The translations under genes were made by a program, and so were the position numbers. The notes under the pieces are model-generated. The model did not search any database. It worked only from the letters and a program-made list of their open reading frames with translations, and was not told where the DNA came from. A DNA stretch of 62,644 bases, counting the filler, from Asterionella formosa (taxonomy: Eukaryota), in assembly GCA_002256025.1 (NCBI GenBank). It is 5 parts of 5 records of this genome, joined end to end, with 100 filler letters (N's around TTAATTAATTAA, not from the genome) between each part and the next. Parts side by side here need not be neighbours in the genome. Positions count along the whole stretch, not along the records: positions 28,586 to 57,038 come from NKIB01001221.1; positions 57,139 to 58,908 come from NKIB01001233.1; 3 more parts are not named here. One strand, given 5' to 3'. Shown here one piece after another: positions 8,705 through 62,384 of this stretch (its first letter is position 1; each line of letters opens with the position of its first letter).

Positions 8705-8960
8705 TACATGAAGTGATCATCACGTAAATAAGCCTAGTTGATTTTGAATGCATCACATGAATTAGATGAACATATCAAAATGCTTACTTGAATATATCTA
8801 TATATTATCCGAATACATCACACTAATTATTTGATCAGAGTATCATGCATGCATTCCTGATCATCACTATATTACGTGATCACCTTCACGTAATTATTTG
8901 AAATACTTCAATTAATTCTGTAATTTAGTTCACATTGCCTTATAATTTTGTTCACGTAAT
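8705..8960. repeat. Dispersed AT-rich repeat, also at 56712-57037
   Basis: The shared sequence GAAGTGA.CATCAC.TAAATAAGCCTAGTTGATTTTGAATGCATCACATGAATTAG...TATCATGCATGCATTCCTGATCATCACTAT occurs at both loci. Confidence 0.85.
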
Positions 8961-10623
8961 TCTATAATATAGTTCACGTAATGTATTAAATTTGTTTACA
9001 TAATTTAAAAGTACTATCAAATAATGTTGATTCTTAATTCAACTACCGGTATTTCACATTACATTGGAAACAAATCTCGATATGCAATCAAACAAAGCTG
9101 TTCTATCAGAATGGAATCTTCAGTCTTGAGAAGGCGCAGGCATTATGAGACATCTGTAAGGACATTGCAAGACAAAGAGAAGCCATTCATTCAGAAGGGG
9201 AAAAATATTCACTCTTGAACAGGCATCATTGTACAAAGTTGAAACATGAATGCATCACACACTGGCTTCCTTCTTGTCCTTGAAATGACTTCTTCGTTGA
9301 CCTGCAAAGATTTACATAACAACAGTGTGTCAGTATTTCATATGATAGAACTAGCAACAGCAGAAAGCAACACACACATGTAGTAGTATTCAACTGTTCC
9401 TTGGGGCAGTCGAATTGAAGCAACAAACCGGCAACAACCAGGCAGCTCACTGATGCGTTCATAAGAATGCTCCTGTTGTGAAATGGACGGCTAAAATGTA
9501 AAATAAAATAAATGTAGACAACAATAACAGAACCATGTGATTTATCGCTCGCTTTGCTGAAACAATGACAAAAACTGAAGATTGAGCTTACCTTAAAGGC
9601 CTCCATTGCGGGTCTCCATTTTGTATCATTTCACCCTCTATCACTCATGCTTTCCAAAGAACACTACTTTTTTGAAAAGGCCTGTTCAAATGTCAAATGA
9701 ATTTTGAAAACAACAGCATATCAGTATGAGTTATCCTTCACTTGGTGATATGATAGCAAAAATAGTAAGCAAATAAATCTTACCTTAAAAGCATCGATTG
9801 CTTACGATCTCAGTGTTGTGTCATTCCACCTTCTGTTGTGGTTGCAACAAACAATATGTGAGTTCTTGGCTGATGAAGGATTTGTTAATGGTGAGGCGCT
9901 GAAAAGCTAGAAGCGGGATACTGCTTTTAAGGGTCGTCCCCATGTTGAAAACATTTTGTGCACAGTGGTGGTTAAATGTTGTCTTTATGAATTCAGAGGG
10001 GCTCAAAAATCCTGGCGCAGCCATGACTTCATCTTTGTACCAACAGAACCTAGCTACAATCTACACGAAAAAACCTGGCGCAGTCTTGTTACTTCGTCGG
10101 GACAAATTCTGATGCTACAAGTGTGACCTAAAACAAATATGACAAGAAGGAGAGGACACAGCCAATGGTTACTCTTAGTATACCGGTATTCACAGTGCGA
10201 ACGCCATAGTCTATTGTAACAAGGGAAATACGGGAATGCTGGTAGGGCAAAGCAACCTACAGTTCCACAGTACGCACGTAGAAATGAGTACAGTTTCACA
10301 GTACGAACGGTATAATTCCTATTGTAACAAGAAAGGGGAAGACGGAAATACTGGTAGGGCAAACCTACAGTCTCACACTTGAAACAACGACCTGGTTCCT
10401 ACCAGCCAGAAGTACCTGGTGGTACCATACAATATAGCTATTTGTTACCATGTCTGAGTGCAGGGTCCAAAGACCCAAGGTACCAGGTACCTGGTACCTG
10501 GTAGCCCTCGTACCTGGTACTGGTAGTATGTATCATAGCCCTGTGTAGGCCTTCGATACCGATACCTGGTCACAGGTACCTGGTGAAGTATCTAACTAGA
10601 AGTAGTAGTATTTGTTGAATATA

Positions 10624-10752
10624 TGAGCTAATTAATCTTATGTATCCCAAGTTGACATCAAAGTATACAATAGGTGTTAGTCGAGCGAGTTCTGATATAT
10701 TTGATATAACCTTAACCCTATATACATCTGTATCGATGTGCAGGATCGCTCA
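10624..10752 (-). repeat. Putative 3' LTR of the Gypsy element (~129 bp)
   Basis: Bounded by TGAGC...GCTCA inverted ends. On the minus strand it follows the purine-rich GTGGGAGAG (PPT-like) just after the integrase stop. Confidence 0.55.
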
Positions 10753-10769
10753 CTCTCCCACACTTCAGG

Positions 10770-14136: not shown

Positions 14137-14776
14137 CCGCATACTTCATTGTCCTGGACCCCCAATGTACACTGCCGTGACTGAATTTGACTGATTTTAC
14201 TTAAGGGGGGCCCAGGACAATGAAGAGATTTCCCTTATAATGGACCTAAGTAAATTTCTTTAGTTCTACATGATAGCGCACATTTTTCTAAGATGTATTA
14301 ATATGACAATTATTTCCGTCTTGTGAAAAATGAGAGAGTTCTTCACCTCGCAAGAAAAACGCGACTTCATGTTGTTATCGGCGATCTCAATTTTCGTTGT
14401 CATTATTAGTGTTATTACTTTACATCTTTTACGATTGTATTTTCCATGTCATTCTTAATACAGGTAGCAAAGTAGCAAAGCGTCGTTCTCTATTTTCGTG
14501 GAGATAATTCGTATTTTCGTCATGGTCAAGGTTGCGACAACATCATGAAGGATTCTCCAGCTGCTCACAGCCACTACCTGTCGTCTCTTGTGTTTTGTAT
14601 GCACAAAAGAATCGCAAAATGGTAGCTAAATAATTATATACCAGTGCCTACGAGGACAAAAAGAATTATGGCACGTTACTTTGTCTATGACAAGAAAATT
14701 ATTGGGTGTTTGGTTCCACCTCGAGAAAAATGTACAGGGAGGGGGTCCGGGGGGTCCAGGACAACGAAGTATACAG
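14137..14776. mobile_element. MITE/non-autonomous Tc1-mariner/pogo-type element with TA target-site duplication
   Basis: TIRs CCGCATACTTCATTGTCCTGGACCCC ... GGGGTCCAGGACAACGAAGTATACAG, with TA on both sides. An empty site is present in the paralogous sequence at ~59850. Confidence 0.85.
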
Positions 14777-18830: not shown

Positions 18831-18989
18831 TAATGATAATATAATTTCACATACTAGTTAAGCTATTAAGGAGGCTTTCACAAACTACAATGTCCTATCA
18901 AATGATGACATTGGATGATCCCAATGGTCCATTATTTCTTCTTTTTCACTCCCAAAGAACCTAAGATGGTCCTTCTCGTTTCGTCCGAA

Positions 18990-21060
18990 ATTTTTGTTCT
19001 CAAATTTTCAACTGCAGATCGATATGAGCGAGTCTTTAAACTTATTCAATTTGATTCCAGAAGGGCTTTGATCAGATACAAAATTTTCTTTCAACATTTT
19101 GTCAAATTTTATGCATCCAGAAATGTGGCCAAGATAGGCATAATTTTTCCATTTGAAGGGAGCAACTATTTCATTCCTTTGTTGGATCATGGATTTTACG
19201 TAGACAACATCATCCTTCTTGAAAGAAGAACTGCAAGGAACTCGTTCAAATACTTCGTTCAAATACTTCGTTCAACATTTTTAAATCTAAATAGTAGGTC
19301 AGATTTTTGTCGATACAAAATTGAAGTACAGTTAATTCCAACTGAAACATATCCTCACGAGAATTTGTTGTTGTCACTTGAGGCCATACTGTTCCAAGAT
19401 GAAAGTATGTTGACTTGGTCGGTGGGTCAAATGTAACAGATAACAAATTGTCTGTTCGATCTGTTGCTACCACCTGACGTTTTAAAGCTTTCCAGCACTC
19501 AGTCTCCAAACGGAAATGTGCCCGCCGTTTGCCAAGAAATTTGGTTTTGCCATTCCTTTCTAATCGCAATAGAGTTTCCAATACTTTCAAAATTGTAAAT
19601 GGTCCACATGACCATTCACTATCATCTTCTGGTTGAAATAACATGGAATCATGTTCAGTGGCCATAATGATCTGCAATGGTGCCGTGCTTTGGTGCCAGT
19701 ATAGAAAGATTCCGATAAACCAATTTCTTCAGATATATGGGATTCTTGTGGAAGATATCCTGTATCGGTGCATAACAATGATTCCAATTATTTGGTGCAT
19801 CCAGGGATGATGCAGTACTTACAGGCAAGGTGAAATACTTAATCATAATGTTCATCCAAACTTGCATCTTTTCCTGGATCACGGACTTGACATAATCCAT
19901 CATTTATAGCAAAAAGATAATGCACAAAATTGTTGTTTTCCTCCTCATCTGATCTTTTTCAATACACAATTAGCACATAGTTACTGTCATGATGAAGTGG
20001 ATGACAATCACCTTGGTATATATACGGTTTGTTATTTATTACCCCTTTTTCTGGATTCTTATCCAGATCAATTATAACCTTTACATCAGTTGGATGAAGT
20101 TCATGAATTATATAATGGATCATAGAGGTAATTGTTTCAAGGTCCCAATGTGCAAGATCTTTAAAGTTGTCCATTCAATTTCGGTAAACTTAAGGAAAAT
20201 GCCGTTTGCTTTGGCATAATAAGCAACTCTACACATTTCACATGCCGACTCTTCACAAAAGTAGCTAGCTGCCTTCGGTATTGTTTTCGATGAATTTACA
20301 AAGAAATCCTAATCTTTTTCTTCCCTGTATGATCAGGAAAAAGATTCAATTTTGTGCTTCAAACTTCGTTCCTGACTCAGTGCATCAACTGCCTTAGCCA
20401 GCATGGTCATCACATCTCTTTCTGTATTGAATTCGAGCTCTTGATCAGCCAAGCGCAGACTTTTTCTTGAATATCTTTTCTTTTATAAATGCAATAGTTT
20501 CTCTGCTTTCATGATGGTCATCTTGATGTTCTGGACGAATAGTGAGACATATTTCTTGGTTTTGCAACTTTTCAACCATTTCTACTTCAGAAGTTATGTC
20601 TCCCACATTTCCGCCGGGTTTTTCATTGATCGCATGAATTTGTTCATCAAATGAATGAGAATCACTGGGTTCTTCTTCATTATCAGCGATTTCGGGAGAC
20701 TGAGCAAAATACGACACTGGATGGTGGAACTGCGACTCTGTAGGAATAGAATCTTCATCTGCGAAGAACAAATGTTTGGGTTTCCTTGGCTCTTCGAAAA
20801 CAATCTTTCCTTCTTTTCAATCTCTGCCAATATTGTATCGGCATACTTCATTATTTTTTCTGGAGTATTACAAATCTTTTCAAATTCATCTGATCTTTGA
20901 GTGTATTCAAAGGAATCTTCGATTGATTTCATAACTTTCTTCATCTTTTTTCTCAAAACATAAAATCGTGTAGTGTAAACGATGGAAGTAAGTCATGTTT
21001 CTTGTTTGACTGATCCTTTCCATGAAATCCATTAAAACCATGAAATGCCATTTGGAAAGT
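18990..21060 (-). pseudogene. TE-borne ORF with Ulp1/C48-like protease remnant
   Basis: Fragments YFTLPV...NNWNHCYA..QDI and FQPEDDSEWSCGPF match the His and Gln-x-Cys motifs of Ulp1-like peptidases. The N-terminal part is duplicated at 34080-35200. Confidence 0.55.
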
Positions 21061-22833
21061 TGTCAAAAGGCCAGAAGACTATGATGTAAAACAGTTGAAG
21101 GGAAACGCGGAGCTTTCGTGGCGCTTGTTGAGGTGCAACTGGTGTGATGGCAACTGAGTGTAGTATTTGTTGAACAGAGCACAGTGTAACATGCATGTTG
21201 CGCCAGCATAGTGTTTACACAATACATATGCCAGTATATATAGGTTGATGATACAGATACTGGGCGGGTTTTCAATGAGCAAACAACAATGAAGAGAGCC
21301 ACTTGTCACTCTATTGATGGTAACAAAGATGTGGATACGTTCAACAGTGAATACAAGTACAGCATCCCAAATGTGGAAACAAGCAATATGAAAAAGAAAT
21401 TGTAATCAGAATCATTCTATAACTATAACTATATGAACAGCAGTCTGTTACATTTTCGTATCGCCTTCTATGCTGAATCTCAATAGTAGATGTAGTATCA
21501 TCATGTGAGAATTGAAAATGTCAACAAGAACAAGTAGAATGTGTTCATTTATGAGTTGATTGGCAAGATTGTAATGCTGGTGGTTGACCAAATGGATTTA
21601 CTATGTGCACTGTGTGCGGAACCATTCCGAGTTTGAATGATATCTTCTCTGTAAACTCTTAATTGAATGATTATGAACATAGGTTCACTGTACATGACGA
21701 TTACTCAAAGATATAATGATCACTCCACCAAAAATTGAACATGTTTTCGCAAACAATCATTCCACTTGTCATTGGTAGTATTTTGTTATTGTTGCAAAAA
21801 TAGGCGTCAGGACTGATGAAGATGATGAGCCAAGGTAAATTACTTTAGCTGGTACATTATCCTACCAAGAAATTTAAATACAGGAACCTAATGGAAAAAA
21901 TATAGTCAAAGGGGCGGTTTTTGTTTAAAAAGGAGTGCATTTATCAAAATTATTAGATGATATAACGAAAAATTATGATCAGATGATCATAATCCTATGA
22001 TCATGCATCATAGGAATATGATGGTTTTCATTTGCAGATTTGATGCTGTGGCCAATGGAATCTCAATGATCTGACCATTGGACATGAAAGCTGGAGGAAC
22101 ATCATGATAGTGGAAGGTGCGGCATGATGAATATATGTTTTTAGTGAAATCAAAAACACATATCCAGTTCTGGTTTGCCACCTTGTCCACAACATGCAAT
22201 CTACCATCCTGGTTCCACTCCCAACCCAACATTTTTGTATATTCCTATCAGCAGCCATTTTTCATCCTCCACCAGTGCCCCAACAACAAATGTGCTACTC
22301 CCACGCTACTCCTCCTGCTCCTCCTCATCATGGATACTATCACCTGCTGCCTCTGGCCAGCAGTCAACCAGCACCAGCCAACTCCAACTGCATCCTCAGC
22401 ACCCACCCACCCTTCCACCACAACAAGCAGCATTTATGATTACCCAAGCTCCTCCTCTGAATTGAAAAATTCATTTTCTGCCTGTAGTAATGTGACAGAA
22501 AGAAAAAAGAGATTCAATTTCTGTGACCTTGAACAAGGTAAACCTTTTTTTTGTTCATGATTTTCTCATCCAATCTAGATTCCTTTTCTCTTTTTTCTCT
22601 CTCTCCCTACTTCAATAATCATCTTGTTGCTTACCTTTGTTGTTGATGAATCATATTTGGGCTAGAAAGAATGATGCACAATTTTCGACATTTGATAAAT
22701 TGAAAAAACCAATATTAACTGTTATTCTGGCTGTTATGCTAAAATCATCATTGTATTACCAAAAATTTGAATGTGCCCCATATTGCCAATAAATAAAAGT
22801 TAGTTAAGAACTTACTTAGAAATACCCAAATGG

Positions 22834-25800
22834 CTAGAAAATAATTTGAGCAGGTTTTGCTGTAGTAATTGCCACACTGAAGGAGTCATTCACAGCCAAG
22901 TTGCTAAGTGCTGCACAACCATAGCGCTGCATGTCAGCATTTGATGAATGAATCTTCATCGCATCCAGAATTGTAGTGATACCCCCTGCTGCAGTAATTG
23001 CCTCACTGAAGTAGTCATTCACAGCCAAGTTGCTAAGTGCTGCACAACCATAGTGCTGCACATCAGCATTTGATGAATGAATCTTCATCGCATCCAGAAT
23101 CGAAGTGATACCTCCTGCTGCAACAATTGACACCTTGTTGTTGTCATTCAAAGTTAAGTTCCAAAGTGCTGCACAGCCATTACATTGCACATCAGCATTG
23201 GATGGATGAGTGTTCATGGCAGACAGAATCATCATGATACCTTTTTTGTAAACAATCTTCTCCTTGTTGTTTTCATTCTCAGCCAACTTCTGAAGTGCTG
23301 CACAACCATAGTGTTGCACCAAAGCATTCTTTGGATGTTCTTTCATTGCAGACAGAATTGTAGTGATACCTCCTGCATCAGCAATCAACACCTTGTAGTT
23401 GTCATCCACAGACAAGTTCTGAAGCGCTGCACAACCATAGTGTTGAACAGAAGCATTGTTTGAAGGATTCTTCATAGCAGACAGAATGATAGCGATATCT
23501 TCTTCAGCAATCATCACCTGGTTGTTGTAATTCCCAGCCAAGTTTGCTATCTCCATGAGATTTTTTTCTTGGATGTCAGCATTCTGCTCATTCCTTTGCA
23601 TCTCTGAAAGAAGTTCAGCAATTCGAGACAAAATAGAAGTTGCAGTAGGCCCTCTTGTTGCAGCAATAGTCACATTGATGTTGTCATTCACAGCCAAGTT
23701 CTGCGGCTCTGGAGCTGCTATCTTTATTGACCCACCTATGGAAATGGGCTCATAGCAATTGCCACTGCTTGGAGTTGGGGAAGAAGGATGCGCTGCATTT
23801 GTTGTTGATGTTGAGATTGGCTGAACAGTGTTGCTTTCTGTTGGTTGGCGGTTCTTGTTGTCATTATTCAAAATCAAGTTGTGAAGCTTTACAAGACCAT
23901 TTTGTACAGTAGCATTGGTTGAATGAATCTTCAATGCAGACAGAATTGTAGTGATACCCCCTGCTGCAGTAATTGCCTCACTGAAGTAGTCATTCACAGC
24001 CAAGTTGCTAAGTGCTGCACAACCATAGTGCTGCACATCAGCATTTGATGAATGAATCTTCATCGCATCCAGAATCGAAGTGATACCTCCTGCTGCAACA
24101 ATTGACACCTTGTTGTTGTCATTCAAAGTTAAGTTCCAAAGTGCTGCACAGCCATTACATTGCACATCAGCATTGGATGGATGAGTGTTCATGGCAGACA
24201 GAATCATCATGATACCTTTTTTGTAAACAATCTTCTCCTTGTTGTTTTCATTCTCAGCCAACTTCTGAAGTGCTGCACAACCATAGTGTTGCACCAAAGC
24301 ATTCTTTGGATGTTCTTTCATTGCAGACAGAATTGTAGTGATACCTCCTGCATCAGCAATCAACACCTTGTAGTTGTCATCCACAGACAAGTTCTGAAGC
24401 GCTGCACAACCATAGTGTTGAACAGAAGCATTGTTTGAAGGATTCTTCATAGCAGACAGAATGATAGCGATATCTTCTTCAGCAATCATCACCTGGTTGT
24501 TGTAATTCCCAGCCAAGTTTGCTATCTCCATGAGATTTTTTTCTTGGATGTCAGCATTCTGCTCATTCCTTTGCATCTCTGAAAGAAGTTCAGCAATTCG
24601 AGACAAAATAGAAGTAGCAGTAGGCCCTTGATATATGGATGCTTTGGGACTTCCACCACCAACATCAGGATATGTTTGACTCACAAGTCGACCCAATTCT
24701 TTAACCAATTCTCTAGTCTTTGGTCTCTTCGTGCGATTGTTCTGAATGCAATGAATGGCTAATGTACACACCGAGGACAGAATTCCATCTTCCCATTCCT
24801 CTGCACAAGGATCAACATCCTCCACCAATTTTGGAATTGCCAACTTCAATGCCTCTGCTGGAGTTCCTTCAAAATCGATTGGGAAGTAGCGTTTAAAGAA
24901 ATCTCCCAACTTCACACTATCATTTTGGAGGCAGCCTGTCACAAGCTCAATCATGACAATACCAAATGAGTAAACATCACATGATGCTTCATATTCGTTA
25001 CCCCTGGAATGATTTGGACATATGTAGCCCGGTGTCCCATGTACTCCATCACCTGCTGTGTAACAAACTGAAGAAGGAATTGGATTGGTTTTTACTGAGC
25101 TACCCTTACGCACAAACTTGGCTAGGCCACAATCAACCAGCTTGGCAGTATAGTTCTGATCAAGGCAGATATTAGATGACTTGATGTCACGATGAAACAG
25201 AGTGTGGCCGTCCATTTTTGTAGTATGAAGGAAGTGGATGGCAGAAATAATTTCGTTCATGATTTTAAGTCGGATCTTACTTGAGAGACTTGATCTTTTT
25301 TGTTCACTCTTATAGAATGTATCAAGTGACCCATTGGATAATAACTCATACACCAGGTATTGATCAGATACCACGTGTTGATCAGATAAAACAAGGGACA
25401 AATGATAGCCATACAAAGTTACAATATTGGGGTGTCGGAACAACTTTAATACCTGAAACAGTAAGATAGAAGAATGAGAAACATAAAGACTTGAAACAAC
25501 AGGCAATAGATGATACTACGGATGAGCTTACCTCCAATTCTATTTTAAAAGTCTCTCTTTTGAAAGTCTTCCTAATTCCTTTTTTCTGATCTTCCAAAGA
25601 AAATAAATTGAAACGAACACATTTCACAGCAAAATACCGATTGTCATCCTCGCCTTTGTAGACAGCACCAAAAGCTCCTTGACCAAGTTTCAAGGCATCA
25701 TCAAAGTTGTTTGTACAATTATTAATGAATTCAACAGGAAGCTCGATTGGTCTTGAATTCACATTGTCCATAGCTTCCTTCATTTTCGATCGACCAATGG

Positions 25801-27097
25801 AAATGAGATCAGTTGGATTGCTACTGCTTGGTGTTGGAGGTGTTGTTGAGATTGGTTGTAAAATAGAAAGTGCTCTTTTAGCTTGTTCAATCACACCAGC
25901 ATTGGCTGAGTGATATCGCATAGCAAACTCAATTGCGACTTTTCCACCAGCATTGGAAATCTTCAACTGGTTGTTGTCATTCACAGGCAAGTTCTGTAGT
26001 GCTACACAACCATATCTTTGGATATTAGCATTCTCTGGATGTTTCTTCATTGCAGACAGAATCGCATCGATACCTCCTGCTTCAGCAATCATTGCTTGGT
26101 TGGTGTAATCATTCTCAGCCCAGGTTCCAAGCTTCAAGAGACCATCTATTTGAATGTCAGCTTTCCACTCATTCTGTTGCATCTTTGAAACAGTTGTAGC
26201 AATCTGAGACAAAATTAAAGTGGCAGTAGGCCCTTCTGCTTCAGGAAGTGGCACATTGTTGTTGGCATTCGAAGGCAAGTTCTGATGCTCTGTAGGTGCC
26301 TTCTTTATCACTATAGAAATGGATTCAGTGTGATTGCTATCGCTTGGTGTTTGCTTTTTTGGGGAAGTAGCTGTCTTCTTTATCGACTCATCTATGGACA
26401 TGGATTCAGTGCGATTGCTATCACTTGGTGTTTGCTTTGTTAGGGAAGAAGGTTGTTGTTTGCGGTTCTTGTTTGCATCAACAAGTTTTTGAATATCATT
26501 TAGTAAATAAGCACCAATTGAATTACGACAGAGAATAAGTTTATTCAAGACATTATTGACCTTGAGAGCCTCTGCAATGGCCTTGGCGCCGTCATTACCA
26601 ATTGAATTATCTCCGAGATCAAGTGTAGTCAAGAAAGTATTGTCCTCGAGAGCCTTTGCAATGGCTTTGGCGCCATCATCACCAATTAAATTATGATCGA
26701 GATGAAGTCTAGTCAAAACAGTATTGACCTTGAGTGCATCTGCAATGGCCTTGGCTCCGTCATCACCAATTGAACTATCAAAGAGAATAAGTTCATTCAA
26801 GACAGTATTGACCTTGAGAGCCTCTGCAAAGGCCTTGGCTCCGTCATCACCAATTCTATTGTTGAAGAGATGAAGTGTAGTCAAGACAGTATTGACCATG
26901 AGGGCCTCTGCAAAGGCCTTGGCTCCGTCAACACCAATTGAATTACTATGGAGATCAAGACTAGTCAATCCAGTATTGACCTTGAGAGCCGCTGCAATGG
27001 CCTTGGCTCCGTCATCACCAAAACTATTGAGAGAAAGGTAAGTCAAACTTGGATCATTCGCTTTCAACCGTTTGACACCTGCTTCCCAGCTAGGCAT
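22834..27097 (-). CDS. RI-like LRR + ARM + Pelle/IRAK-like kinase + ARM-repeat protein (~1394 aa); exons 27097-25532, 25452-22834
   Basis: 28-aa LRRs (IGDDGAKAIAEALKVNTVLTTL.L). Kinase motifs GQGAFGAVYKG, FAVK, HRDIKSSNI, DCGLAK, GTPGY and DVYSFG. Intron 25453-25531 (GTAAG..TTTCAG) joins FKIELE|VLKLFRHPNIV. ARM repeats (AGGITTILSAMK.H..NA.VQ.YGCAAL.NL). Confidence 0.9.
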
Positions 27098-27526
27098 TGT
27101 CAATATAGTCTTGGATGTAATGGAAGTTGTTTATAGTGATTGAAGAGCGACTTCTTTTTTGGTTCTTGTTCGAGTGAAAAGTGTTTTTTGTTTTCTGTGT
27201 TGACACTCCTTTTCTCGTGCTGCCAAAATAGTGTCTCGACAACTTGTCGTAGAATTCTACGCAACTCATTCCTCAGGCATGACATGTATACCTTCATCGT
27301 CGTCAATTCTGATTGATTACAAACTTAAGGTTGCTGCATTTGAACCCCTAGCTCGAGGTAGGGTTAAAAAATAATATTCAGTCAGACTAATCAAACACGT
27401 ACTTTTCAAGTATAAAATAGATATCTATAACGCTCAACGAAGCTTTCACCAATACACACCCTTTCCATACAGTCTTCGGACAAAGTAGGGGTGTTGGTCC
27501 ACTCTATATATCGTCAGTATGTAGGA

Positions 27527-33031: not shown

Positions 33032-33336
33032 GCGAACAAAAAATAATAAAGTGGATGATCATTCCTTCGCTCATTTGCAAAAGACACGAAACAGGTAGGT
33101 GTATGAATGATCATTATAAACCGGTAATACCAACTAATAGAATACAGTACCTGGTACATACCGGCACGCAGCAGCATCGCTCACATAAGCAATGCTGTAC
33201 ATTATTACTTTAAGTTGAAACAGATAAGTCAAATGAATCCTGTTTGTACAGCATCTCCAAAATCAGCCCAGTCATGACCTTTTGTGTCTACTGGTACCAG
33301 GTAGTCATGAACATGAATCAATCTTTACTCATATTG

Positions 33337-33670: not shown

Positions 33671-33939
33671 TTTTGATTAATCATAAAGTATATTTGTTAA
33701 TATAAATATTCGACTTAAAATGTATACAGTAAAAGCAAATGGTTAATATGATAGTATTATATTGTGAATAGGATCTAAGTATATGGATGCGCTGATATAT
33801 ACATCATCAAAACATGAATTATGATATTGATTGATGCATATCAAATACTGGTATCCTCCACAACCAGCCATCACGTTCATCGTCGTGTCGTTTTTCCTTG
33901 TGATATAGTATATTATGAAAACACTATAGCTCGTGTCGC

Positions 33940-36900
33940 TGGCGCAACATGCATATTACACTGCGCTCTGTTCAACAATTACTACACTTGGTTACCATCA
34001 CACCAGTTGCACCACCACAAGCGCTGCAAAAGCTCCGCATTTCAATTCCACTGTCTTACATCATAGTCTTCTGGCCCATTGACAACTTTCCAAATGTTAT
34101 TTCATGGATTTCATCGAAATGATCAGTCAAACAAGAAACATGACTTACTTCCGTCATTTACACTACACGACTTTATGTTTTCGGAAAAGAAGATAAAGAC
34201 ACTTATGAAATCAATCGAAGATTCCTTTGAATACACTCAAAGATCAGATGAATTTGAACAGATTTATAATACTCCAGAAAAAATAATGAAGCAAGTATGC
34301 CGATAAAATAGTGGCAGAGATTGAAAAGAAGGAAAGATTGCTTTCGAAGAGGAAACCCAAACAGTTGTTCTTCGCAGATGAAGAGTCTATTCCTACAGAG
34401 TCACAGTTCCATCCGGTGTCGTATTTTGCTCATTCTCTTGACATCGCTGATAATGAAGATGAACTCAGTGATTCTCATTCATTTAATGAACAAGTTCATG
34501 CGATGAATGAAAATACCGGCGGAAATGTGGGAGACATCACTTCTGAAGTAGAAATGGTTGAAAAGTTGCAAAACCAAGAAATACGTCTCACTATTCGTCC
34601 AGAGCATCAAGATGGGCTGAACATCATGAAAGCAGAGAAACGATTGCATTTCTAAAAGAAAAGATATTCAAGAAAAAGTCTACGCTAGATCAAGACCTCG
34701 AATTCAAGAAGATCCATGCAGACAGAGATGTGGTGATGCTGGCTAAGGCAGTTGATGCACTGAGTCGGGAACAAAGTTTGAAGCACAAAATTGAATCTTT
34801 TTCCAAATCATACATGGAAGAAAAAGATTAGGAATTATTTTTAAAATCATCGAGAACAATCCCGAAGGCAGCTAGCTACTTTTGTGAAGAGTTGGCATGT
34901 GAAATGTGTAGAGTTATTATGCCAAAGCAAACTGCATTTTCCTTGAGTTTGCCGAAAACACATGGACAACCAAAATTGTGGAAAGAATTGTACACATGTA
35001 CGCACCCCACAAGAAATATGAAATTACGCCTCTGTATTTTATGAAGTCAAAGGTATCAAAAAATCATCTTCAGATTTTAAAGATCTTGCATATTGGGACC
35101 TTGAAACAATTACCTCTATGATCCATTATATAATTCATGAACTTCGTCCAACTGATGTAAAGGATATACTACATTTGATCTGGATGAGAACCCAGAAAAG
35201 GGTAATAACTTAACTAGTATGTGAAACTATATTATCACTATTATTAATATTATTCTTGTATATTTATCAACATTCGCTTGTTAGTTTTTGGTCCCACCCA
35301 GTTGATTTCCATAAATGACGTGGAGGCATGGCAACATAAAAATTATCTCTCCATATCTTTTCCAAAACCTCTTGCTTTTTTAGAGATTTCCTTGATTCCT
35401 GTGGTTTCAAAGCAGGAACAACAAATGCTGCCAAAAGTATGTTATGAAATTCAACAACGCTCAATTCAGTTGTATAATTGCATAAGGTGTCTCCTCTTGC
35501 AAAAAACATACATTTATGATTTTTCATTTCAGTTGAACTTTTCAAGGAACGAATACACGCTAAGATAATGGTTGTTGTGTTGGAGAAAATAACATTTCCC
35601 CAAAGGAGTAGTTTTGCTGGAACGGAACTTTGTAGGAACTTGATCCATATCCCTTCTCCCAGTTCACTTCAACCCAGTCAAACCATTCACGACCAGAGAT
35701 TCCTGCATTTGAATCATTATTCCATTTCGGATGGCATCTGAAAATAGTAGTTGGGCTGGGAACATAACTTTCAATTTTAACATTATAATAAAAGTCAATC
35801 CTTACAATGGAAATAGGCCCAACCCCATCTTCAAGACTTTTTATTCTTCCTATTTCTATTGCTGAATTCGCAATGCTCTTTATGTAGTTGCCCTTCTTCG
35901 ATAAATCAGGATGAACCAATTGAGACAAGGGTGCATCCTTACTCCGTGATATATGCCCAATTTTATTAGGGACACCTGCTATAGTCCATTGACCATTTGA
36001 TGATCTGCCTTGATCAAGAATAGCAATGTCTGTTGTTTCCGTGCTTTGAAACCAAGAAAAAAAACATATTGTTGATATAATCCATTACCACCCCTGAAAT
36101 CGCAAATTTTGTTGTGCTCTTCTGTATCACTAATGATCATTCCAATCTGGAAATAAACTTTTGTCATTCCAAGACCATGAACCCAAATATCGTATTAGTA
36201 CTTGTTTGGATCTTCGAAAGGCAACAATAGAAATCCTGTAACAGAATGGTATAACTTGAGTCTACACAAGGACAACACATCACCAGATAACTTATTATTC
36301 ATTTGTTTCTCCAGATCACTGACTTCAATGTCTGGCAAAAGAGTTACCAATTGCCATCCATCAACTTTGTTCCTTCTTTCTAACGTTAAGTTTAACATTG
36401 TCAACAAAAACGGATGCTTGGAATGTTTCATTTGTTTATCAATAGGTGAACCATCACTGAAAACTGCTAGGGCAACAAATAAACACCCTGTCTTGCCTTC
36501 AGCACTCCATTTTCTGATGCAGGAGATTTGTTGAACGCATTTTCAAACCAAGTCGCGGAAGTTACTTTGTCATGTATGCGTTCTCCACAAGTTGTAAGTT
36601 TCACTTGTGGGTGATATAAAAAATGTTGCATGATATCGGAATAATAATGGGGTGTGTGTGGGATGACCATGTTTGAATTGTTGTCAATCTGTATTTGTTT
36701 GGTCAAGAGTTGACCACCAGCTAATGATGGTGGAAATGAAACATCCATGCGTTTCTCCAAAGTCTGGTAGGATTGATCTTGATACCTTCTATCAAAATAT
36801 TTCATTGCCTTTGCCTTGAACAGCCATTTCATTAGTGATCAAAGTACACTGGTGGAAGTTTATTCTCGTTAAGGAATAATATGAGTTCTAGTTCTAATTC

Positions 36901-37075
36901 GATTGGATGCATGTTTAGCAAAGGTTTACTTGGAAGTTGAAATTGAGGAAGGAAGGGGCATTTCCATTGCATTTTCAGGGAGAAAGCCGGTGTGATCTTG
37001 AAAATCTGAATATTGCATGGTTTCTGCATTCAATACTTGGAGAGTCTTTATTCCATTAGCAAGTTCTTTCTTTTT
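33940..37075. mobile_element. Plavaka-like element, copy 2 (inverted, internally deleted)
   Basis: 33940-35200 is the reverse complement of ~20040-21205. 35205-37075 (-) carries transposase pieces, including TSATWF, VFSDGSPID, HPFLLTMLNL..R....GWQLVTLLP and LKLYH. Confidence 0.75.
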
Positions 37076-47592: not shown

Positions 47593-48562
47593 TTTCCGTG
47601 GTCCGTATCAGCCAGATACTACGAAAGAAAAGAATATGCAGTATAGCAAGGGTCAAAGAGGGCAAGATGAGACGGCAGACGGGATGAGTTGTCGTTTTCG
47701 ACGACAGATCATACAGTTTCACAGTATATTTATATATTCCGGCAGGTTGCCAATAAGAAATTAAGCAAAATACAAAAAGCGAATTTATGTACGGGGACAT
47801 TTCATAGTACAGATCTCCCATCTCCCATCAGAACAAAATATTCGGATCGGTATCACTATATACCGGTATCAGGTACCTGGTACCTGTACTCCGTCCGCGT
47901 ATAATAAAATATAGCGGTATACCGTATTTCTTTACTTTACGTAAAATGTGTATTCATTCACCAATATGCCGGATATTTTTTATACTTGCATACCAGGAAA
48001 TGATAAGAATATCATTCCTCCAGGAGTTGCATACCGGTAGTTGTGCCGCTGTAGATTTTGCATACTGAATAGTAAGTATATGGTGCGAACTTCAAATACT
48101 ATCAAGACAAGCCACCTCCTTACAGTGTACCAGTTTATCTATTGCTGTATATATGGTATTCTATGCATTCTATACATACTCGTTTTAATGATGATCTTAA
48201 GTATTTACGACATTAGGTGTCACGTACTTAATGCTTCCACAAATGCATATGTACCTGTAGTCTGCCGGTTCTTAAATACCGGTATGTAGGGAGTATCTAT
48301 TAGCAAGAAATGAATTACGATGATACTATCGAATAAGTCGAATCTTATCGTTGGGTGGGTTTTTACTTCAAAATAGACTGCAGCACTGTACAAGGATGTA
48401 TGTATGTACCGTTAGGCATCTAAATGTTTGTGATGATTTTATTTTTTATCATCATTAAAGAAATACTCGTACATATCATTTAGCATACAGTATACATGAA
48501 GCCAAGCTATGGCAAAAGAACCTTCTATCGGGTATCTTTCAGTATCGGGAATCGCTTACATT

Positions 48563-48830: not shown

Positions 48831-49887
48831 CAGGTCTTGTTGGCAGGTAGCACAAAGAAATACTTGCTATAAAACATACTAGTATCTTTATTATTGTATT
48901 CTTACTGGTCACCATGATGAAACAACAATCAAGACCAACAGAAGCGATGCCAATGACATTTGCGATGGTGATATCCTTGGCCTGAGATCTATTTCAACAG
49001 CCAAAGCTGTGAGTTGCAAGCATGTTGTGGCACGATTATCAAGCTGAATGCTTACAGGCTTATAGGCAGTGCTGGCCTTGATGTTGTAGGCTTGCCGAAA
49101 GCATTCATAGAATTATTTTCGTCTGCTGCCTCATGATGCTGATGCAGAAATATTTCATGAATGTCATGATTCTGGTCCAATAATCATGTAAGTGATGTGA
49201 TAAGCTCATCTCAATTTCTATCACAATCCAAGTCGTAGAACCTACACAAATGTTAACCATTGTCGGAATAGGTACACAAGAGTACACACTTCTCTAGGAC
49301 TTACTATAAATGCCATCACGAAACACCAGAGCACCAAAAATATAAATTCTATCATTGATCCTAGAAACTGTTGGAACCTACAACAATACCATTACTATAT
49401 CTTTTAATGTTGCCATTGACGTTTCAGACTAATAAAGGAAAAAGTGGTGAAGCTGGTTTGCTAATATTATTTGATGATCAAAAAAGGTCCAATATCTTAT
49501 TCGCCCCAGTAAGTAAAACCAGTCGTTACTTTCTGCATTGAGGGATACGAGACACCACAGGTTTGACGGTACTGGTACCTGGTACCAGGTACCACAGATA
49601 TGGGCAGAGACGACCGAAGAAAGGCGAACATACGGACGAGACGCGCGGTAATTGTCGTGTCGAACTTGCTTCGACTGATTCCATAATAACAGTGTGGTGA
49701 ATACCGTAGTGGTGTTTCCTGTAAATATATATTTTACCAACGTACAAAATGATTTGACTTCTGTTATAACCTTTCTCTTTTCTTCGAATAAGAAAGCCGG
49801 TTTTCCAATCATCTCAACAACTGCATCAGCCTTGAAACGACAGAAACATCAATACTACCCAAAGCAAATCCACTTCATAAGAGAACA

Positions 49888-55766: not shown

Positions 55767-56889
55767 GGCGGCGGGAAGGGTGGAACGGGAAGGATAATCA
55801 AGGAACTTGTGAAGTGAATCAAGGGATGAACATAAAGGGAGTACCGGTATTACAAATGCGGTATGATGATGGTCGTTCCTGTTCCAAACATTCGGACAAA
55901 TATTTATAACAACACGATATCATGCTGGTCAGCTTTATATTACGGTATACCTGTGACGGTAAAATTCGGACTTTCCGGAACTCCCTCGTAATTCTAGCTC
56001 CATCCACATCAACATATTGTGTTTCAAATTAGATGCGACTAAAAGGGCAATTAAGTTTGGTGGTAAAAAAATCTAACTTCTTCTCATTGTTTAAAGCTAT
56101 ATAAATTTCATCTCGTCGCAGCAATCAAGAGAAAGGAAATGAGGGGTCAATCGAAAACGATTTCTTTCAGTTGTCAGCCAATCTTGGCCACTGGATAATT
56201 ACAATGCTGCAAGGATTATCTTTTTGAACTGTATTCATGGACCTGAAGTCTCAGTTTCTCAATCAGTGGCAACCACACTATAAGTTAATGAGTGGTGAAG
56301 TGCAAAGCTAGAAGATGCAATCACATTGGCCAAGTCTGCAAACTTACCTAGTTGGGAACATCTCCTTCAGATTCACATTGCTAATGCCTTTCCTGCATCT
56401 GTTCCTAGTAGTACTGGAACTGCTTTCGAGGTGGGAAACAGTACTAGCATTTCCTGTACTGGCCATTCAGATGAATTAACTTTCATCAATAAAACATTGA
56501 ATGCTGATGTTGCTGTATGCTCTCCTGATGACAGAAACTCATCATCTGAGGAAGAGGAGAATGAAAATACTGGTAGCATTTGTGAATGATTTAATAATTA
56601 TATATTTAATTAGCTCCACACAATTTCATTTCTTTCGATTGCCTGTCTGGTGCAGTAATGAACTAAATTCGCTCTCCTATTTATATAAGCTTACATCTAA
56701 GCCGCGTATTACGTGAAGTGACCATCACATAAATAAGCCTAGTTGATTTTGAATGCATCACATGAATTAGTTGAATACATCAAAATACGTAGTTGAATAT
56801 ATCTATATATTATCTGAATACATCACGTTAAATATTTGATCAAAGTATCATGCATGCATTCCTGATCATCACTATATTATGTGATCACG

Positions 56890-57030
56890 TTCACATAATT
56901 ATTTGAAATACTTCACATAATTATTTGAAATACTTCACATAATTATTTGAAATACTTCACATAATTATTTGAAAATACTTCACATAATTATTTGAAATAC
57001 TTAACATAATTCTGTAATTTCGTTCACATA
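56890..57030. repeat. 22-bp minisatellite (TTCACATAATTATTTGAAATAC) x~5-6
   Basis: Direct tandem copies just before the contig end. The paralog at ~8885 has a single unit. Confidence 0.9.
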
Positions 57031-59008
57031 ATTCTAGANNNNNNNNNNNNNNNNNNNNNNNNNNNNNNNNNNNNNNNNNNNNTTAATTAATTAANNNNNN
57101 NNNNNNNNNNNNNNNNNNNNNNNNNNNNNNNNNNNNNNAGTGTCAATATATTTTCGCCTCTAGTGACCTGATTAGGAACATGTACCACAATCCACTAGAT
57201 GATTGATTCAAGATTACATGGTTAAATATCGCGTGTAAAATGCCACAGTTGAGAGAGGAACTTTCTGGAGAAGTTCTCTCTAACCTGTTAATTGGACTCT
57301 AGAAGACGATCAGACCTAGAAGCCAAATCAATAAATGATTGACTAGACAATTACAGATATGTCCGTAACATCAAGGAACATTAAAGAAGCAAACTAGATA
57401 TGATCTAGTTATGATTAACAGGATCATTCTGTAAGCAGTCTTCGATCAAACAGCATCTGGCCTAAGTTGAGACAGGCCAAGATTAAGACAAATGTGTATT
57501 TAGGAAGAGGATGTAGTTTATTCTCAGTTCAAGTTGGGAACACAAATGAACCTCGCCTCCGAAGATCACCTCTATTTTGAAACATGCATGAGCTTGGAAG
57601 TTTCAAAATCATACATTCAAATTTACATTTACATTAAGCTCACTCTTTTATAAAAACAATTATTAGCAAACAAAGTAAAACAAACAAATTGTGTAGAAAC
57701 ATTTTTCTAGCAAATTTTACTGCGTGAGAGCTACAGATACGTAGCATCTTCCAACTTTTTACACATCAATTTACCGGTATTACCGGTATTTATTTTGATG
57801 ATGTACCGGTATACGGTATATGTAGACCCAACTCGCATCAAACCACCACGAAAGCAACAGGATTTTCATGTCAGCTTGTCATGTAGGATATTCTGAGTAC
57901 CGGTAAGAGTGAACACGGAGTGCCTAGACTTGGCGAACGCTAAGGAGCTTTTCGTAGGACAACCTTGTGGTTGCTTGGTGGTTGTCCCAACATCACAAAG
58001 AGGAAGGTCCGGTAAAACACGTTTTTACTTCGGAAAAGACTAAGCTAAATAGCTCGATACCGGACCTTCCTTAGGTCCCCTACCGGTAGTCCCCAAATGT
58101 AGATTACCGTAGGTACCTGGCACCTGGTACCGTAACTACCGTACCTGGTACCAGGGTATACATAGCAGGACCTGGTCTAGGTTTGTTGAAAGGTCTCGTA
58201 CTCCTTCCCGTCTGACGGGTTCCTCTTACGTAGAACTTACCTGCTATACCACTACCGGTAGTATTGTTATCTTCTTTCTGCTGCTAGCCTTCGTGCTAGT
58301 TTTCGCTATTGACCTTACTCTGTCAATTCTCACTGCTTCTTAATTATAAGATTAAACTAAACCCAAGTTTCAATCCCATTCATCACACTTCGAGAACCTG
58401 TTCTTCGTGTTCCCTTTTCGTTGATGTAAACCTTCTTCTGATTGATCTAAGACATCAATCTCGTTGGCAAGCTTCTTGACATGGGAACGCACCATTTGAC
58501 TCATTGGACTATAGTCGAGTCCACAGTCCTTGTGACTCATTTTAGCCATTGATGCTATATTCTTGACATAGGTTGTGACTGTCAGTCACCATGTACCCTG
58601 GACCAGGTACCTAGTACCAGGTTCTCTACCTGGTGGTACCTGGTACCAGTACCTGGTACCTGTTATCCAGGTTAGCTACCTGGTACCTGGTTCTGTTGAC
58701 AATTGGCTTCCGCTCACTGCCAGCTTGTTCGATCGTGCTCCCATATCATGGCATATCACCTACCGGTACATACCGGTACCTGGTACCTGGTACGCAACTT
58801 CGGACTTGTGCAAACAAGAAACACAAACGCAATTGAACCTAAGTTACCCCATCGGCAAAAAGGGATCAGTCTCCTTGAACTATCAAAAGTTTCAATCTTG
58901 GTCAATGANNNNNNNNNNNNNNNNNNNNNNNNNNNNNNNNNNNNNNNNNNNNTTAATTAATTAANNNNNNNNNNNNNNNNNNNNNNNNNNNNNNNNNNNN
59001 NNNNNNNN

Positions 59009-59407
59009 TTGAATATCCTCCATCAAGCGGAATGAAGCCATTCCGGCATTCCTCTTGCTCTTCTTTTTCATCATAGAATTTTCATTGTCATCATACAGTT
59101 CTAGCACCTGCGCAAACTTGTCGATGTACTTGCTCCGTTGTGAAGGCAATGCTGCAACTTCTCTGCCCAGAAACCCAACAGTGCAAAGTTCCGTGCCATC
59201 CTTGATGAGGACAGCCTTGATCGTCTCCAATGGCTTGCTCAATACATCCTCCACAGCAGCCAGCTTGAACCTGATCACATCATCAGCCTTAACCGCTTTC
59301 CCGCAGCATTCATGTTGCTCACATGAGCGCCCATTGCTGGAAGCATTCAGTCCAAGCAACTCCCCATCTCGGCGGCTGTTGATTGTTGCTGATCTTGTTG
59401 TTGACAT
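59009..59407 (-). CDS. Small HIRAN-like protein inside a TA-type TIR element (3' end cut by gap)
   Basis: LLGLNASSNGRSCEQHECCG...IKAVLIKDGTELCTVGFL; the ATG lies ~205 bp inside the TIR that ends at 59613. Confidence 0.55.
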
Positions 59408-59479
59408 GATTAATATGTAGTATGCATTGGTAGTACCGATATTACTGGTAGTTTATACTGGTAGCGTCATTCAATTTCC

Positions 59480-59613
59480 GCCACAAAAATCAGAATTATT
59501 ACACGTTACTTTGTCTGTGTCTAGAAAATTATTGGGTGTTTGGTGCCACCTCGAAAAAAATGTACAGGGGGGTCCAGCAACCTCAGGGGGGTCCAGGACA
59601 ATGAAGTATACGG
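59480..59613. mobile_element. Terminal region/TIR of the same family as the 14137-14776 MITE
   Basis: Aligns with 14655-14776 and ends GGGGTCCAGGACAATGAAGTATACGG followed by TA. Confidence 0.85.
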
Positions 59614-60735: not shown

Positions 60736-62384
60736 TACGGCAACAAACAAATGATGCAAGTTCCTCTGACTGTCTTTGNNNNNNNNNNNNNNNNNNNNNN
60801 NNNNNNNNNNNNNNNNNNNNNNTTAATTAATTAANNNNNNNNNNNNNNNNNNNNNNNNNNNNNNNNNNNNNNNNNNNNTCAACCCGGTTGCATTGACGGT
60901 TGATTTTGTACTCCCTTTTTGGTTGAAAAATCAACTCTGATTAGTCGTAGAAAGGCCGGGATGTGCGTGATGATGCATAAAAATATGCACATGAAGCAAG
61001 ATGGTGGTACCAGGTACCAGGTACCTTTCAGCTTACCGGCAAGTTGCGGTAATTTTGCTAAACGAGCAGTATCCAAACTTTAGTGCTACATACGTCATCG
61101 TGCTGGCAATAGTGATTCCAATTCCAAATTGATTCATGTGTATCTCTTTTGATTTTTCATTTAATAAACCACCTGACCACCTGGTTGTTTGGAATTGTCT
61201 GTAACTTTAATCTGATTTAGCCTACAATATTGAGACCTAGGATCTTTTTACTTATTCTGCCAGTTGGTACCATAGTAGCTAGGATTTGCTTAATGTTTGA
61301 CCATTTTGATTAAAGTATCAATTTCCCTTGATGTGTGATGTCATCATTTCAACCCAAATGCCATCACAGCCGCATACCAACATAACACTGTAGTTAATGA
61401 TGATACAACATACCGGTAAACATAAGGTGAAGTAAGCAATGTATTGCCCATGAAACATGCAATATATCATACACCTTTTGATGGATTCATGTAGCTACAG
61501 GGTACCTGAGGTAGCCCACATAGGCACTAGAATGTAATTATTTAGCTTAGATTATGCTTTTTCTATATTTAATACACTACAGTGTAGTCATTCTGAATGG
61601 CTGGAGAGCGAATATTGCATAATGTTGTCTCAGTCTTGACCATGACAATGAAAATCAGAACGACGCTTTGCTATTTGGTATGTACAATAATGACATCATC
61701 GACAATACAATCAAAACAATTATACTAATTACAATGATATTGACAACGAAAATTGAAGACGCTGATGGCACGTTTTTTCATGTAAATCAGTGATGCACCA
61801 TTTTTAAAAATGACATGTTACAAGGAGCTTTGACACTTTTACAGTAATTACTCAACAAATAAGACTACGACTACGTCGATAACAAGAATAAGTGGAGCAA
61901 CAGATGTTAAATAAGTTTTTTATCTACTGAGAATTGATTGATTACGAATTGGCATGTGAAAGCAAGCTGACAAATGTCAAATATGCTGTCAAAACTACTA
62001 CTAGCTAGTAATACCCTATAGTTAATGTTTGACAGCCCCTTCATGCAGCATACATGTGAGTGCTTAAAGGAGTACAGAACATCATTATGAAATAATGCTA
62101 CACATAGTGATCCACTGTTATTACCAGCATATTGTTAACATAGTACCAGTAGACTAATGCTGGTAAATCTCTTTCCTTCTGTAGTGACACATGCAGTCAT
62201 CTACATATGAATTAAGGACTGTGCATGCTTGTCTACAAAGTTTAAGAAAAATATTGCTTAACGTTGTCTTGATTAAATTAGATTCCATCATTTGCTTAAA
62301 CCTAAATAGTCTTTCAGTACTTTAACCCAAAGTAAAACGATTTGGAAAGTAAAATGGCTGTTGATCCAGTCTAGTACAATAGTA

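What the first reader, a model, noticed from the sequence alone, without database searches (positions are those of the whole stretch)
57770..58800. Pervasive TA-CCGG-TA / TA-CCWGG-TA palindromes in non-coding DNA: accumulated footprints or an insertion process
Seen: TACCGGTA occurs roughly 20 times in the window (e.g. ~3833, 9044, 10181, 12398, 12427, 37802, 38013, 40567, 47861, 48031, 48277, 55842, 57773, 57781, 57804, 57898, 58081, 58253, 58761, 58771, 61411), against about one expected for an 8-mer. The sites I found lie outside intact CDS. TACCTGGTA/TACCAGGTA form nested arrays at 10390-10585, 47865-47890, 49570-49592, 58110-58155, 58590-58795 and 61005-61025. Known: Tc1/mariner excision leaves TA + terminal bases + TA. 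A TA-targeting family with CCG...CGG ends exists in this window. Inference: repeated insertion/excision cycles, each creating new TA targets, or another templated-insertion process, are writing these arrays.
Basis: partly seen in the sequence, partly recalled or inferred. Interest (0 to 1): 0.75.

Follow-up and report, generated by a model that had tools for sequence, protein, structure and literature searches.

The report
Transposon scars stacking into diatom repeats
The non-coding DNA of this freshwater alga is dotted with tiny identical insertions at TA sites that are best read as scars left by two kinds of cut-and-paste jumping gene, one of which tends to land again in its own scars and so builds short repeat arrays.

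Summary
Observation confirmed. TACCGGTA occurs 28,528 times genome-wide (reversed control 1,718). TACCWGGTA arrays are equally real, non-coding, present in independent runs and different between alleles. Both are derived insertions at a TA, shown by empty paralogues, including the LTR site at 58253.

They are two processes, not one. TACCGGTA has nearly random flanks and matches young pogo/Passer-like DD35D families with TA|CCG...CGG|TA ends (415 exact ends; ends present in this window). TACCWGGTA needs (G)G-TA-C(C) flanks and matches a different family with TA|CCAG ends, whose insertions sit at RG-TA-CY. Its scar recreates and doubles that target, which explains arrays with near-random A/T order. 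Three other MITE families then insert at the array centre.

Excision itself was not observed, the CCAG family's transposase was not found, and scars outnumber donor ends 70 to 700-fold. The mechanism is textbook; the scale, uniformity and self-targeting are not described in the papers searched. It bears on oomycete TACATGTA/TACCGGTA motifs, which are read as transcription-factor sites. The scan noted the same phenomenon earlier on many other pieces of this genome.

The parts
57772..57788 (.). Two adjacent TACCGGTA units
   Evidence: identical in allele L007
57804..57818 (.). TACCGGTA followed by TA-CGG-TA
57898..57905 (.). TACCGGTA; one more 6-base unit is stacked here in run X5
   Evidence: table 4 (one contig, depth 7.7 of 7.7)
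58002..58070 (.). MITE1, 69-bp hairpin element GGAAGGTCCGG...CCGGACCTTCC; its inner TACCGG words are part of its inverted repeat, not scars
   Evidence: 185 candidates, 42 matches listed; ends aligned
58081..58088 (.). TACCGGTA; TACTGGTA in the other allele (C-to-T at the CG)
58105..58160 (.). Degenerate CCWGG/CCG/CCAGGG array
58184..58568 (-). Solo LTR of a copia-type retrotransposon (TG...CA), 6-bp target duplication TAGGTT at 58178-58183 and 58569-58574
   Evidence: 523 candidates; boundaries from 30 copies
58253..58260 (.). TACCGGTA inside the LTR: derived 6-base gain at a TA
   Evidence: absent from 28 of the 30 fetched copies (the other two are this locus and its allele) and from the copy at 27878
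58596..58695 (.). Main CCWGG array; net 17 bases shorter in allele L007
   Evidence: folds at -28.9 kcal/mol, z -5.2
58761..58792 (.). Mixed CCGG + CCTGG array; one 7-base unit fewer and one 6-base unit more in L007; one more TACCGG in X2 and X5
59009..59613 (-). End part of a pogo family B copy, terminus CGG|TA at 59613
   Evidence: 92% to L237 over 613 bp
49139..49592 (+). Decayed end of pogo family A (to 49569, CGG|TA) with a CTGG-CCTGG-CCAGG array grown on its TA (49570-49592)
14137..14776 (.). Decayed internally deleted pogo B copy with both CCG-type ends
10181..10188 (.). TACCGGTA absent from paralogues (plain TA)
   Evidence: vs L050, L109
33289..33303 (.). TA -> TA-CTGG-TA-CCAGG-TA (+13) against paralogue L219
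10584..10754 (-). MITE3 (GGTGA...TCACC type) abutting the centre W of a GGTACC-W site
61008..61062 (.). CCAGG x2 array and a MITE2 end (GCAAGTTGCGG); the array differs by 11 bases in L114

Best explanation
Both words are excision footprints of TA-targeting cut-and-paste transposons, repaired almost always to one product.

(1) TA-CCGG-TA: a pogo/Passer-like element with CCG...CGG ends inserts at TA and duplicates it. On excision 2-3 terminal bases stay on each flank, and joining (blunt CC+GG, or pairing of the CG in two CCG overhangs) leaves +6.

(2) TA-CC(A/T)GG-TA: a second family with CCAG...CTGG ends prefers RG-TA-CY. Two CCAG overhangs pair over CAG with a central A.A mismatch, resolved at random to A or T as in Sleeping Beauty's CAG/CTG, leaving +7. 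This scar turns one target TA into two GG-TA-C sites, so the family lands again in its own scars and arrays grow unit by unit. Pogo ends and pogo scars supply GG-TA seeds. Slippage probably adds some pure runs. G...C-ended MITEs use the array centre as a landing site.

Shown: enrichment, derived insertion at TA, allelic length change, donor ends, target preferences. Inferred: excision, overhang lengths, repair route, that these particular families are the donors.
For: Empty versus filled sites: LTR 58253 (28 of 30 copies empty). Exact empty paralogues exist for 7 of 362 TA-CCGG-TA sites (2 of the 7 in array context) and for 0 of 6, 3, 12 and 25 TA-GGCC/CGCG/GATC/CATG-TA sites. De novo CCWGG at TA: +14 in L179 (7 empty copies), +7 in L170, +14 and 5 units inside MITE2 copies, +40 in L103. 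Allelic change.

Donor 1: 93 DDE_1 matches; TA|CCG ends, copies 99-100% identical; 415 exact ends, control 0; DD35D and DDE_1; purine at -3 in 40 of 53 insertions and 66% of scars against 49% background.

Donor 2: complete 498-bp copy L070:261-758 with TA|CCAG ends. 47 genome matches; by hand tally, of 45 visible ends 40 have TA, 43 have C next, 44 of 44 have C/T after that, and 10 abut a CCWGG unit. Scars have G at -1 in 78% and G/A at -2 in 81%. Asymmetric side product CCAGGG/CCCTGG 55 against CCCAGG/CCTGGG 2 is what a CCAG overhang predicts. Neighbouring units share W in 50 of 89 (p 0.29), and T-then-A makes up 595 of 2,186. Sleeping Beauty precedent: PMC6943129.
Against: No excision was seen in progress, and no site was seen both with an element and with a scar. 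Scars vastly outnumber ends: 28,528 vs 415 exact pogo ends, and about 34,000 (extrapolated) vs 47 CCAG-family matches. No transposase could be tied to the CCAG family (only 4 loci held; one search shows no clear ORF), and that family is absent from the window. T at -1 is rare beside TACCGGTA (12%) but not beside pogo ends (12 of 53), so other donors may contribute. TA-CCG-TA, the expected minor product of a 3-base overhang, is enriched (42 vs 17) but had 0 of 200 empty paralogues. 5 of 45 CCAG-family ends lack TA. Pure runs (5 x CCAGG in L144; AAA x4, TTT x2) and the slight T-then-A excess (p 0.018) point to some slippage. In rice, excision sites are mostly heterogeneous (8 of 94 'perfect'; PMC4423477), unlike this uniformity.
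Confidence: 0.72

Rival explanations
1. One donor only: a family with CC...GG ends (for example CCGG or CCAG ends) makes all units, and pogo A/B are bystanders.
Against: Flanks differ sharply: G at -1 in 24% of TACCGGTA (background 26%) vs 78% of TACCWGGTA. No recurrent CCGG-started element end among 216 candidate sites in about 0.9 Mb. Contigs of another eukaryote carry 332 CCWGG but only 18 CCGG units.
Confidence: 0.1
2. The arrays are a 7-bp microsatellite that grows by slippage and hairpin template switching from a few seeds, with no repeated transposition.
For: Arrays fold strongly (z -5.2); pure runs exist; similar heptamer runs occur in high-GC contigs of unrelated origin.
Against: Units appear de novo at lone TA sites with no prior repeat; A/T order is near random, not homogeneous; W is not predicted by the flanking base (26/23, 51/50, 26/42, 18/17); slippage does not explain the 55:2 asymmetry.
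Confidence: 0.08
3. A host repair or terminal-transferase/telomerase-like activity writes fixed words into breaks at TA, with no element ends as source.
For: Scar-to-donor ratios are very high; W could be an untemplated A on either strand; the uniformity is unusual; telomere-like TAACCCTA is also enriched (19 vs 2.8).
Against: Each word equals the ends of a resident TA-flanked family and shares its flank preference; the TA is duplicated; polar addition predicts one junction order, but both T-A and A-T occur (23 and 16).
Confidence: 0.05
4. The words are selected transcription-factor or chromatin sites, as proposed for the same words in oomycetes.
For: 7 of 21 TACCGGTA lie within 500 bp upstream of my inferred starts vs 15% of non-coding TA (p 0.028; CCWGG 6 of 20, p 0.066). 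TACCGGTA is a high-confidence promoter motif in Phytophthora (PMC3597505) and Plasmopara (PMC10031896).
Against: They arise as whole-word insertions, also inside dead transposons and LTRs, and decay freely (61 CG-deaminated copies per 117 intact). Passer itself prefers promoters (PMC9976928). Later co-option of some sites is not excluded.
Confidence: 0.05

Closest known systems
Sleeping Beauty canonical footprint TA-C(A/T)G-TA (Tc1/mariner; PMC6943129, passages read)
   Same: TA kept twice, terminal bases of the element between, central A/T from a mismatch; footprints of 2-4 terminal bases are stated for the superfamily.
   Different: Here the unit is 4 or 5 bases, is fixed in tens of thousands of natural sites, and the 5-base scar rebuilds the donor's preferred target.
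Passer (pogo superfamily, DD35D; PMC9976928, passages read)
   Same: Family A is DDE_1 with DD35D, a weak Brinker-type domain hit, short inverted repeats and TA duplication. Passer leaves 0-4 bp footprints, prefers promoters and the AAG-TA-CTT target, which resembles the RG-TA-CY target of the CCAG family.
   Different: Described from animals; footprints there vary; no tree was built, so placement within Passer is untested; families A and B carry a second ORF of no Pfam family.
Stowaway MITEs re-inserting at one site beside old footprints (PMC1925063, passages read)
   Same: Repeated insertion and loss at the same TA, with 1-4 bp end fragments left.
   Different: One locus with varied footprints; here genome-wide, uniform and building arrays.
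Oomycete promoter motifs TACATGTA (motif-1, M93) and (G)TACCGGTA (motif-9, M94, streme-5) (PMC3520976, PMC3597505, PMC10031896, passages read)
   Same: Identical word, abundant in non-coding DNA of related stramenopiles.
   Different: Read there as transcription-factor sites; PMC3520976 names the Tc1 footprint and rejects it because of abundance and conservation. Here the word is shown to be a derived insertion. Oomycete DNA was not examined.

Membership tests
Tc1/mariner/pogo excision footprint | Net insertion at a TA with the TA present twice | tested here: met
Tc1/mariner/pogo excision footprint | Inserted bases equal the terminal bases of a resident TA-flanked element | tested here: met
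   CCG...CGG families; CCAG...CTGG family
Tc1/mariner/pogo excision footprint | Scar flanks match the donor's target preference | tested here: inconclusive
   Met for the CCAG family (-1 G, -2 purine) and at -3 for pogo; mismatch at -1 for pogo
Tc1/mariner/pogo excision footprint | Same site seen with the element and with the scar, or excision observed | not testable with these tools
   no such pair in about 0.9 Mb held; needs population or assay data
pogo superfamily (families A, B, C) | DDE_1 transposase with DDxD triad | tested here: met
   PF03184 E 1e-21 (A), 3e-35 (C); DD35D and DD34D; the B copy scanned was truncated, E 1.5e-4
pogo superfamily (families A, B, C) | Terminal inverted repeats and TA duplication | tested here: met
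   complete copies L105, L110, L224, L237, L086
Passer family | Phylogenetic placement of the DD35D domain | not tested
   no tree built
Tc1/mariner/pogo (CCAG family) | Cognate transposase | tested here: inconclusive
   no clear ORF in the one long copy read; DDE_3 and Transposase_1 searches empty (the control of 43 rang nowhere)
Tc1/mariner/pogo (CCAG family) | TA duplication and inverted ends | tested here: met
   L070 complete copy; TA at 40 of 45 ends
Slippage microsatellite | Growth by exact copy of the neighbouring unit from a pre-existing repeat | tested here: not met
   39 of 89 neighbours differ; de novo units at lone TA
hAT/P-nucleotide footprint | Inserted bases are an inverted copy of the flank | tested here: not met
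   fixed word regardless of flank; W not predicted by flank
Transcription-factor site | Protein binding or effect on expression | not testable with these tools
   only a weak upstream bias

The most novel reading that the evidence does not exclude
A transposon whose excision scar recreates and doubles its own preferred target writes repeat arrays by positive feedback. Together with several other uniform scar types (TA-CCGG-TA, X-GC-X) this makes hit-and-run transposition a main source of small insertions and of promoter-region sequence in diatom-like algae. The arrays serve as landing sites for MITEs with a 1-bp target duplication, and the abundant TACATGTA/TACCGGTA 'promoter motifs' of oomycetes have the same origin.
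Probability: 0.4. Interest if true: 0.8.

Novelty: new variant of a known kind. Interest (0 to 1): 0.6.

Why it matters
Intact units alone make up about 0.6% of this genome (28,528 x 6 plus about 34,000 x 7 bases of 68.4 Mb), one unit per kilobase, and they differ between alleles and populations. That is an insertion-biased mutational process which leaves a countable record of past jumps far larger than the surviving elements. It offers a route to repeat arrays that is not slippage. It also makes a standing question testable: the same words are catalogued as transcription-factor sites in Phytophthora and Plasmopara, where the footprint idea was dismissed for being too abundant. An empty-versus-filled paralogue test like the one done here can decide that.

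Tried and rejected
Assembly artefact: rejected.

A pogo family with CCA/CCT ends: 70 of 93 DDE_1 places were fetched; of the second set 39 of 40 map to families A, B or C, with CCG or CAG ends.

Harbinger as donor: the young DDE_Tnp_4 family starts AGGGTC after varied T-rich flanks, no match to the units.

MITE1/2/3 as builders of the arrays (W -> W-GGTACC-W): rejected because de novo units appear at TA sites with no CC-W-GG and W is not a direct copy; the search for their empty sites gave no clean case.

Snap-back templating of W by the flank: no correlation.

A 4-bp GTAC duplication with a CWG scar: contradicted by de novo events at ATAC and GTAG.

The 89 of 418 'empty paralogues' for CCWGG are arrays matching each other and were not used. 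A long autonomous partner of MITE2 was sought in 20 stretches and not found. Species-level identity was not established: exact protein look-up empty; nearest Atlas clusters of BUD31 are oomycete and green-algal. Runs X1, X5 and X8 cover parts of the locus thinly or not at all; gaps were not read as absence. A larger genome sample could not be obtained, which leaves the CCAG family's full structure open.

Full report
Setting. The window is five contigs joined by N spacers, from a 68.4-Mb eukaryote assembly (G000). Runs holding the locus are freshwater and lake samples. I take the organism to be a diatom by inference from gene content and earlier notes; my own tests did not settle it. The finding lies on contig 57139-58908.

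Observation. TACCGGTA occurs 21 times and TACCWGGTA 20 times, against order-2 expectations of 0.35 and 0.44. None lies in my mask of intact coding sequence. Genome-wide TACCGGTA occurs 28,528 times against 1,718 for the reversed word, and the two-unit array word 2,186 times against 0. From 130 sites in 261,858 bases I extrapolate about 34,000 TACCWGGTA. The same extrapolation gives 30,570 for TACCGGTA, so the sample is only slightly enriched. One site, 11607, is ordinary retroelement sequence shared by 3 of 3 paralogues.

They are insertions. 58184-58568 is a solo copia-type LTR. Of 30 fetched copies, 28 have a plain TA where this locus and its allele have TACCGGTA at 58253. Further TA -> TACCGGTA pairs include 10181, L049, L113, L121, L180 and L205. 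With strict 9+9 base flanks, 7 of 362 sites have an empty paralogue, against 0 for four control words with 3 to 25 sites each. Among insertions polarised against young reference copies, 2 of 13 six-base gains were exact TA-CCGG-TA, so these are a minority of all indels inside old repeats. CCWGG units also arise at lone TA sites: +14 in L179, +7 in L170, two and five units inside MITE2 copies, +40 in L103 and +13 at 33289. L007 is the other allele, since two of its differences stand at about half depth in run X1. It differs by whole units at 58612-58650 and 58761-58792 and by a C-to-T change at 58084. Independent runs add a unit at 57896 (X5, one contig) and at 58760 (X2, and X5 at low depth). 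All four runs were contigs, not raw reads.

Two classes. Beside TACCGGTA the base at -1 is G in 24% (background 26%); beside TACCWGGTA it is G in 78%, with G or A at -2 in 81% (both strands counted). The two words therefore have different sources.

Donor of TACCGGTA. A DDE_1 search gave 93 matches. I fetched 70 places; they fall into families A and B, with TA|CCGTA...TACGG|TA ends, and C, with TA|CAG ends, apart from one unassigned locus. Family A has copies 99-100% identical and a DD35D transposase. A and B ends occur 415 times exactly, and in the window at 14137-14776, 49569 and 59613. Their insertion sites share the purine at -3 with the scars (40 of 53; 66%; background 49%) but not the lack of T at -1. 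Retaining CC and GG, or pairing the CG of two CCG overhangs, gives TA-CCGG-TA (inference from Tc1/mariner chemistry; PMC6943129). TA-CCG-TA is enriched 42 vs 17 but has no empty paralogue in 200 sites, so the overhang length is open.

Donor of TACCWGGTA. A scan for recurring ends found a family starting TA|CCAG with G-rich flanks. L070:261-758 is a complete 498-bp copy with inverted ends. A genome search gave 47 matches (the pattern excluded one base at its last place, so some are missed). By hand tally, 45 show the end: 40 are followed by TA, 43 by C after that, 44 of 44 by C or T next, and 10 abut a CCWGG unit and 2 a CCGG unit. The target is thus RG-TA-CY, close to the AAG-TA-CTT of Passer (PMC9976928). 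Two CCAG overhangs paired over three bases give CC(A/T)GG; paired over two they give CCAGGG or CCCTGG but never CCCAGG or CCTGGG. The counts are 371, 55 and 2 in about 720 kb of non-redundant, repeat-biased sample. The scar leaves a GG-TA and a TA-CC, each a better target than most TA sites: units follow GG-TA at 73 per 1000 against 5 or fewer per 1000 when -1 is not G. Neighbouring units share W in 50 of 89 pairs, and T-then-A is 595 of 2,186, as expected for independent events with some slippage. The array at 49570 grew on the TA of a pogo end, which shows how one family seeds the other. Weak points: no transposase was tied to this family, it is not in the window, and 47 ends are few for about 34,000 scars, so other CCAG-ended families or lost copies must be assumed.

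Users of the arrays. Three G...C-ended MITE families insert at the central W. MITE2 has 935 exact end matches; of 58 ends the preceding bases are T 37, A 41, C 39, C 48 and A/T 51, with the same W on both sides in most complete copies. MITE1 (58002-58070) and MITE3 (10584-10754) behave alike. They do not build the arrays (see Tried and rejected). A further scar class, X-GC-X, makes up 27 of 45 derived four-base insertions.

Beyond this genome. In 31 hand-picked loci of 41-47% GC (73.5 kb, chosen by array match, organism not identified) TACCWGGTA was 332 vs 5 expected, TACCGGTA only 18 vs 4, with TACTA, TAGCTA, TAGACTA and TACAGTA also enriched. The CCWGG class thus occurs elsewhere largely without the CCGG class. 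High-GC contigs with similar heptamer runs are probably unrelated tandem repeats.

Position. 7 of 21 TACCGGTA and 6 of 20 TACCWGGTA lie within 500 bp upstream of my inferred gene starts, against 15% of non-coding TA (p 0.028 and 0.066). This fits promoter-biased insertion as well as co-option.

Literature. Passages only were read, no supplements: PMC6943129, PMC9976928, PMC3520976, PMC3597505, PMC10031896, PMC4423477, PMC1925063; bioRxiv 116012 held the words only in a primer. Nine full-text searches (listings seen) found no report of genome-scale uniform footprints, or of these words as footprints, in diatoms. The library lacks most subscription papers, and motif tables in supplements could bear on this. 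The names CACTA, Harbinger, copia and the role of CG methylation in C-to-T decay are recalled knowledge. Earlier scan notes describe the same phenomenon on many other pieces of this genome; they are not independent support. One of them prompted the end search that found the CCAG family.

Verdict. Real, ongoing micro-insertion at TA sites, most likely footprints of two transposon groups (0.72). Known chemistry, unusual scale and self-targeting; interest 0.6.

Noticed in passing
L036, L052, L053, window 14700-21750 and pogo copies: Very frequent X-GC-X insertions (1-3 bases duplicated around GC): 27 of 45 derived 4-base insertions; probably scars of G...C-ended elements with short, unspecific duplications.
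   Followed up: partly
L118, L121, L129, L137; window 61039: MITE2 (about 90 bp, 935 end matches) shows a 1-bp target duplication at the centre of RTACC-W-GGTAY; I know of no superfamily with a 1-bp duplication (recalled, not searched); no autonomous partner found.
   Followed up: partly
window 10584-10754; L012, L038, L049, L052: MITE3 contains telomere-like TAGGGTTA repeats and also targets TACC-W.
   Followed up: partly
L105:781-1218; window 59009-59410: Pogo families A and B carry a second, oppositely oriented ORF (about 135-145 aa, Cys/His motif) with no Pfam match.
   Followed up: partly
window 57139-57756: Part of another very high-copy repeat ending in CA; absent from allele L007, so a hemizygous insertion. 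Not classified.
   Followed up: no
L145, L155-L174: Young Harbinger-type family (DDE_Tnp_4) with about 45 near-identical copies, end AGGGTC.
   Followed up: partly
window 16000-21700 and 33900-37050: Two inverted, decayed copies of a long element with a CACTA/Plavaka-like transposase remnant (label recalled), riddled with small insertions.
   Followed up: no
window 22834-27130: Gene with LRR, kinase and ARM-like repeats including a near-exact internal duplication.
   Followed up: no
L304, L307, L309, L329: Metagenome contigs of another eukaryote whose intergenic DNA is almost wholly made of TA-separated units (TA-C-TA, TA-GC-TA, TA-CAG-TA, TA-CCWGG-TA).
   Followed up: partly
L036-L055: TAACCCTA is enriched (19 vs 2.8) and TA-GGG-TA appears as an insertion in pogo A, possibly telomere-like filler.
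   Followed up: no
window 8700-9000 and 56700-57030: Two copies of a repeat with a 22-bp tandem array.
   Followed up: no
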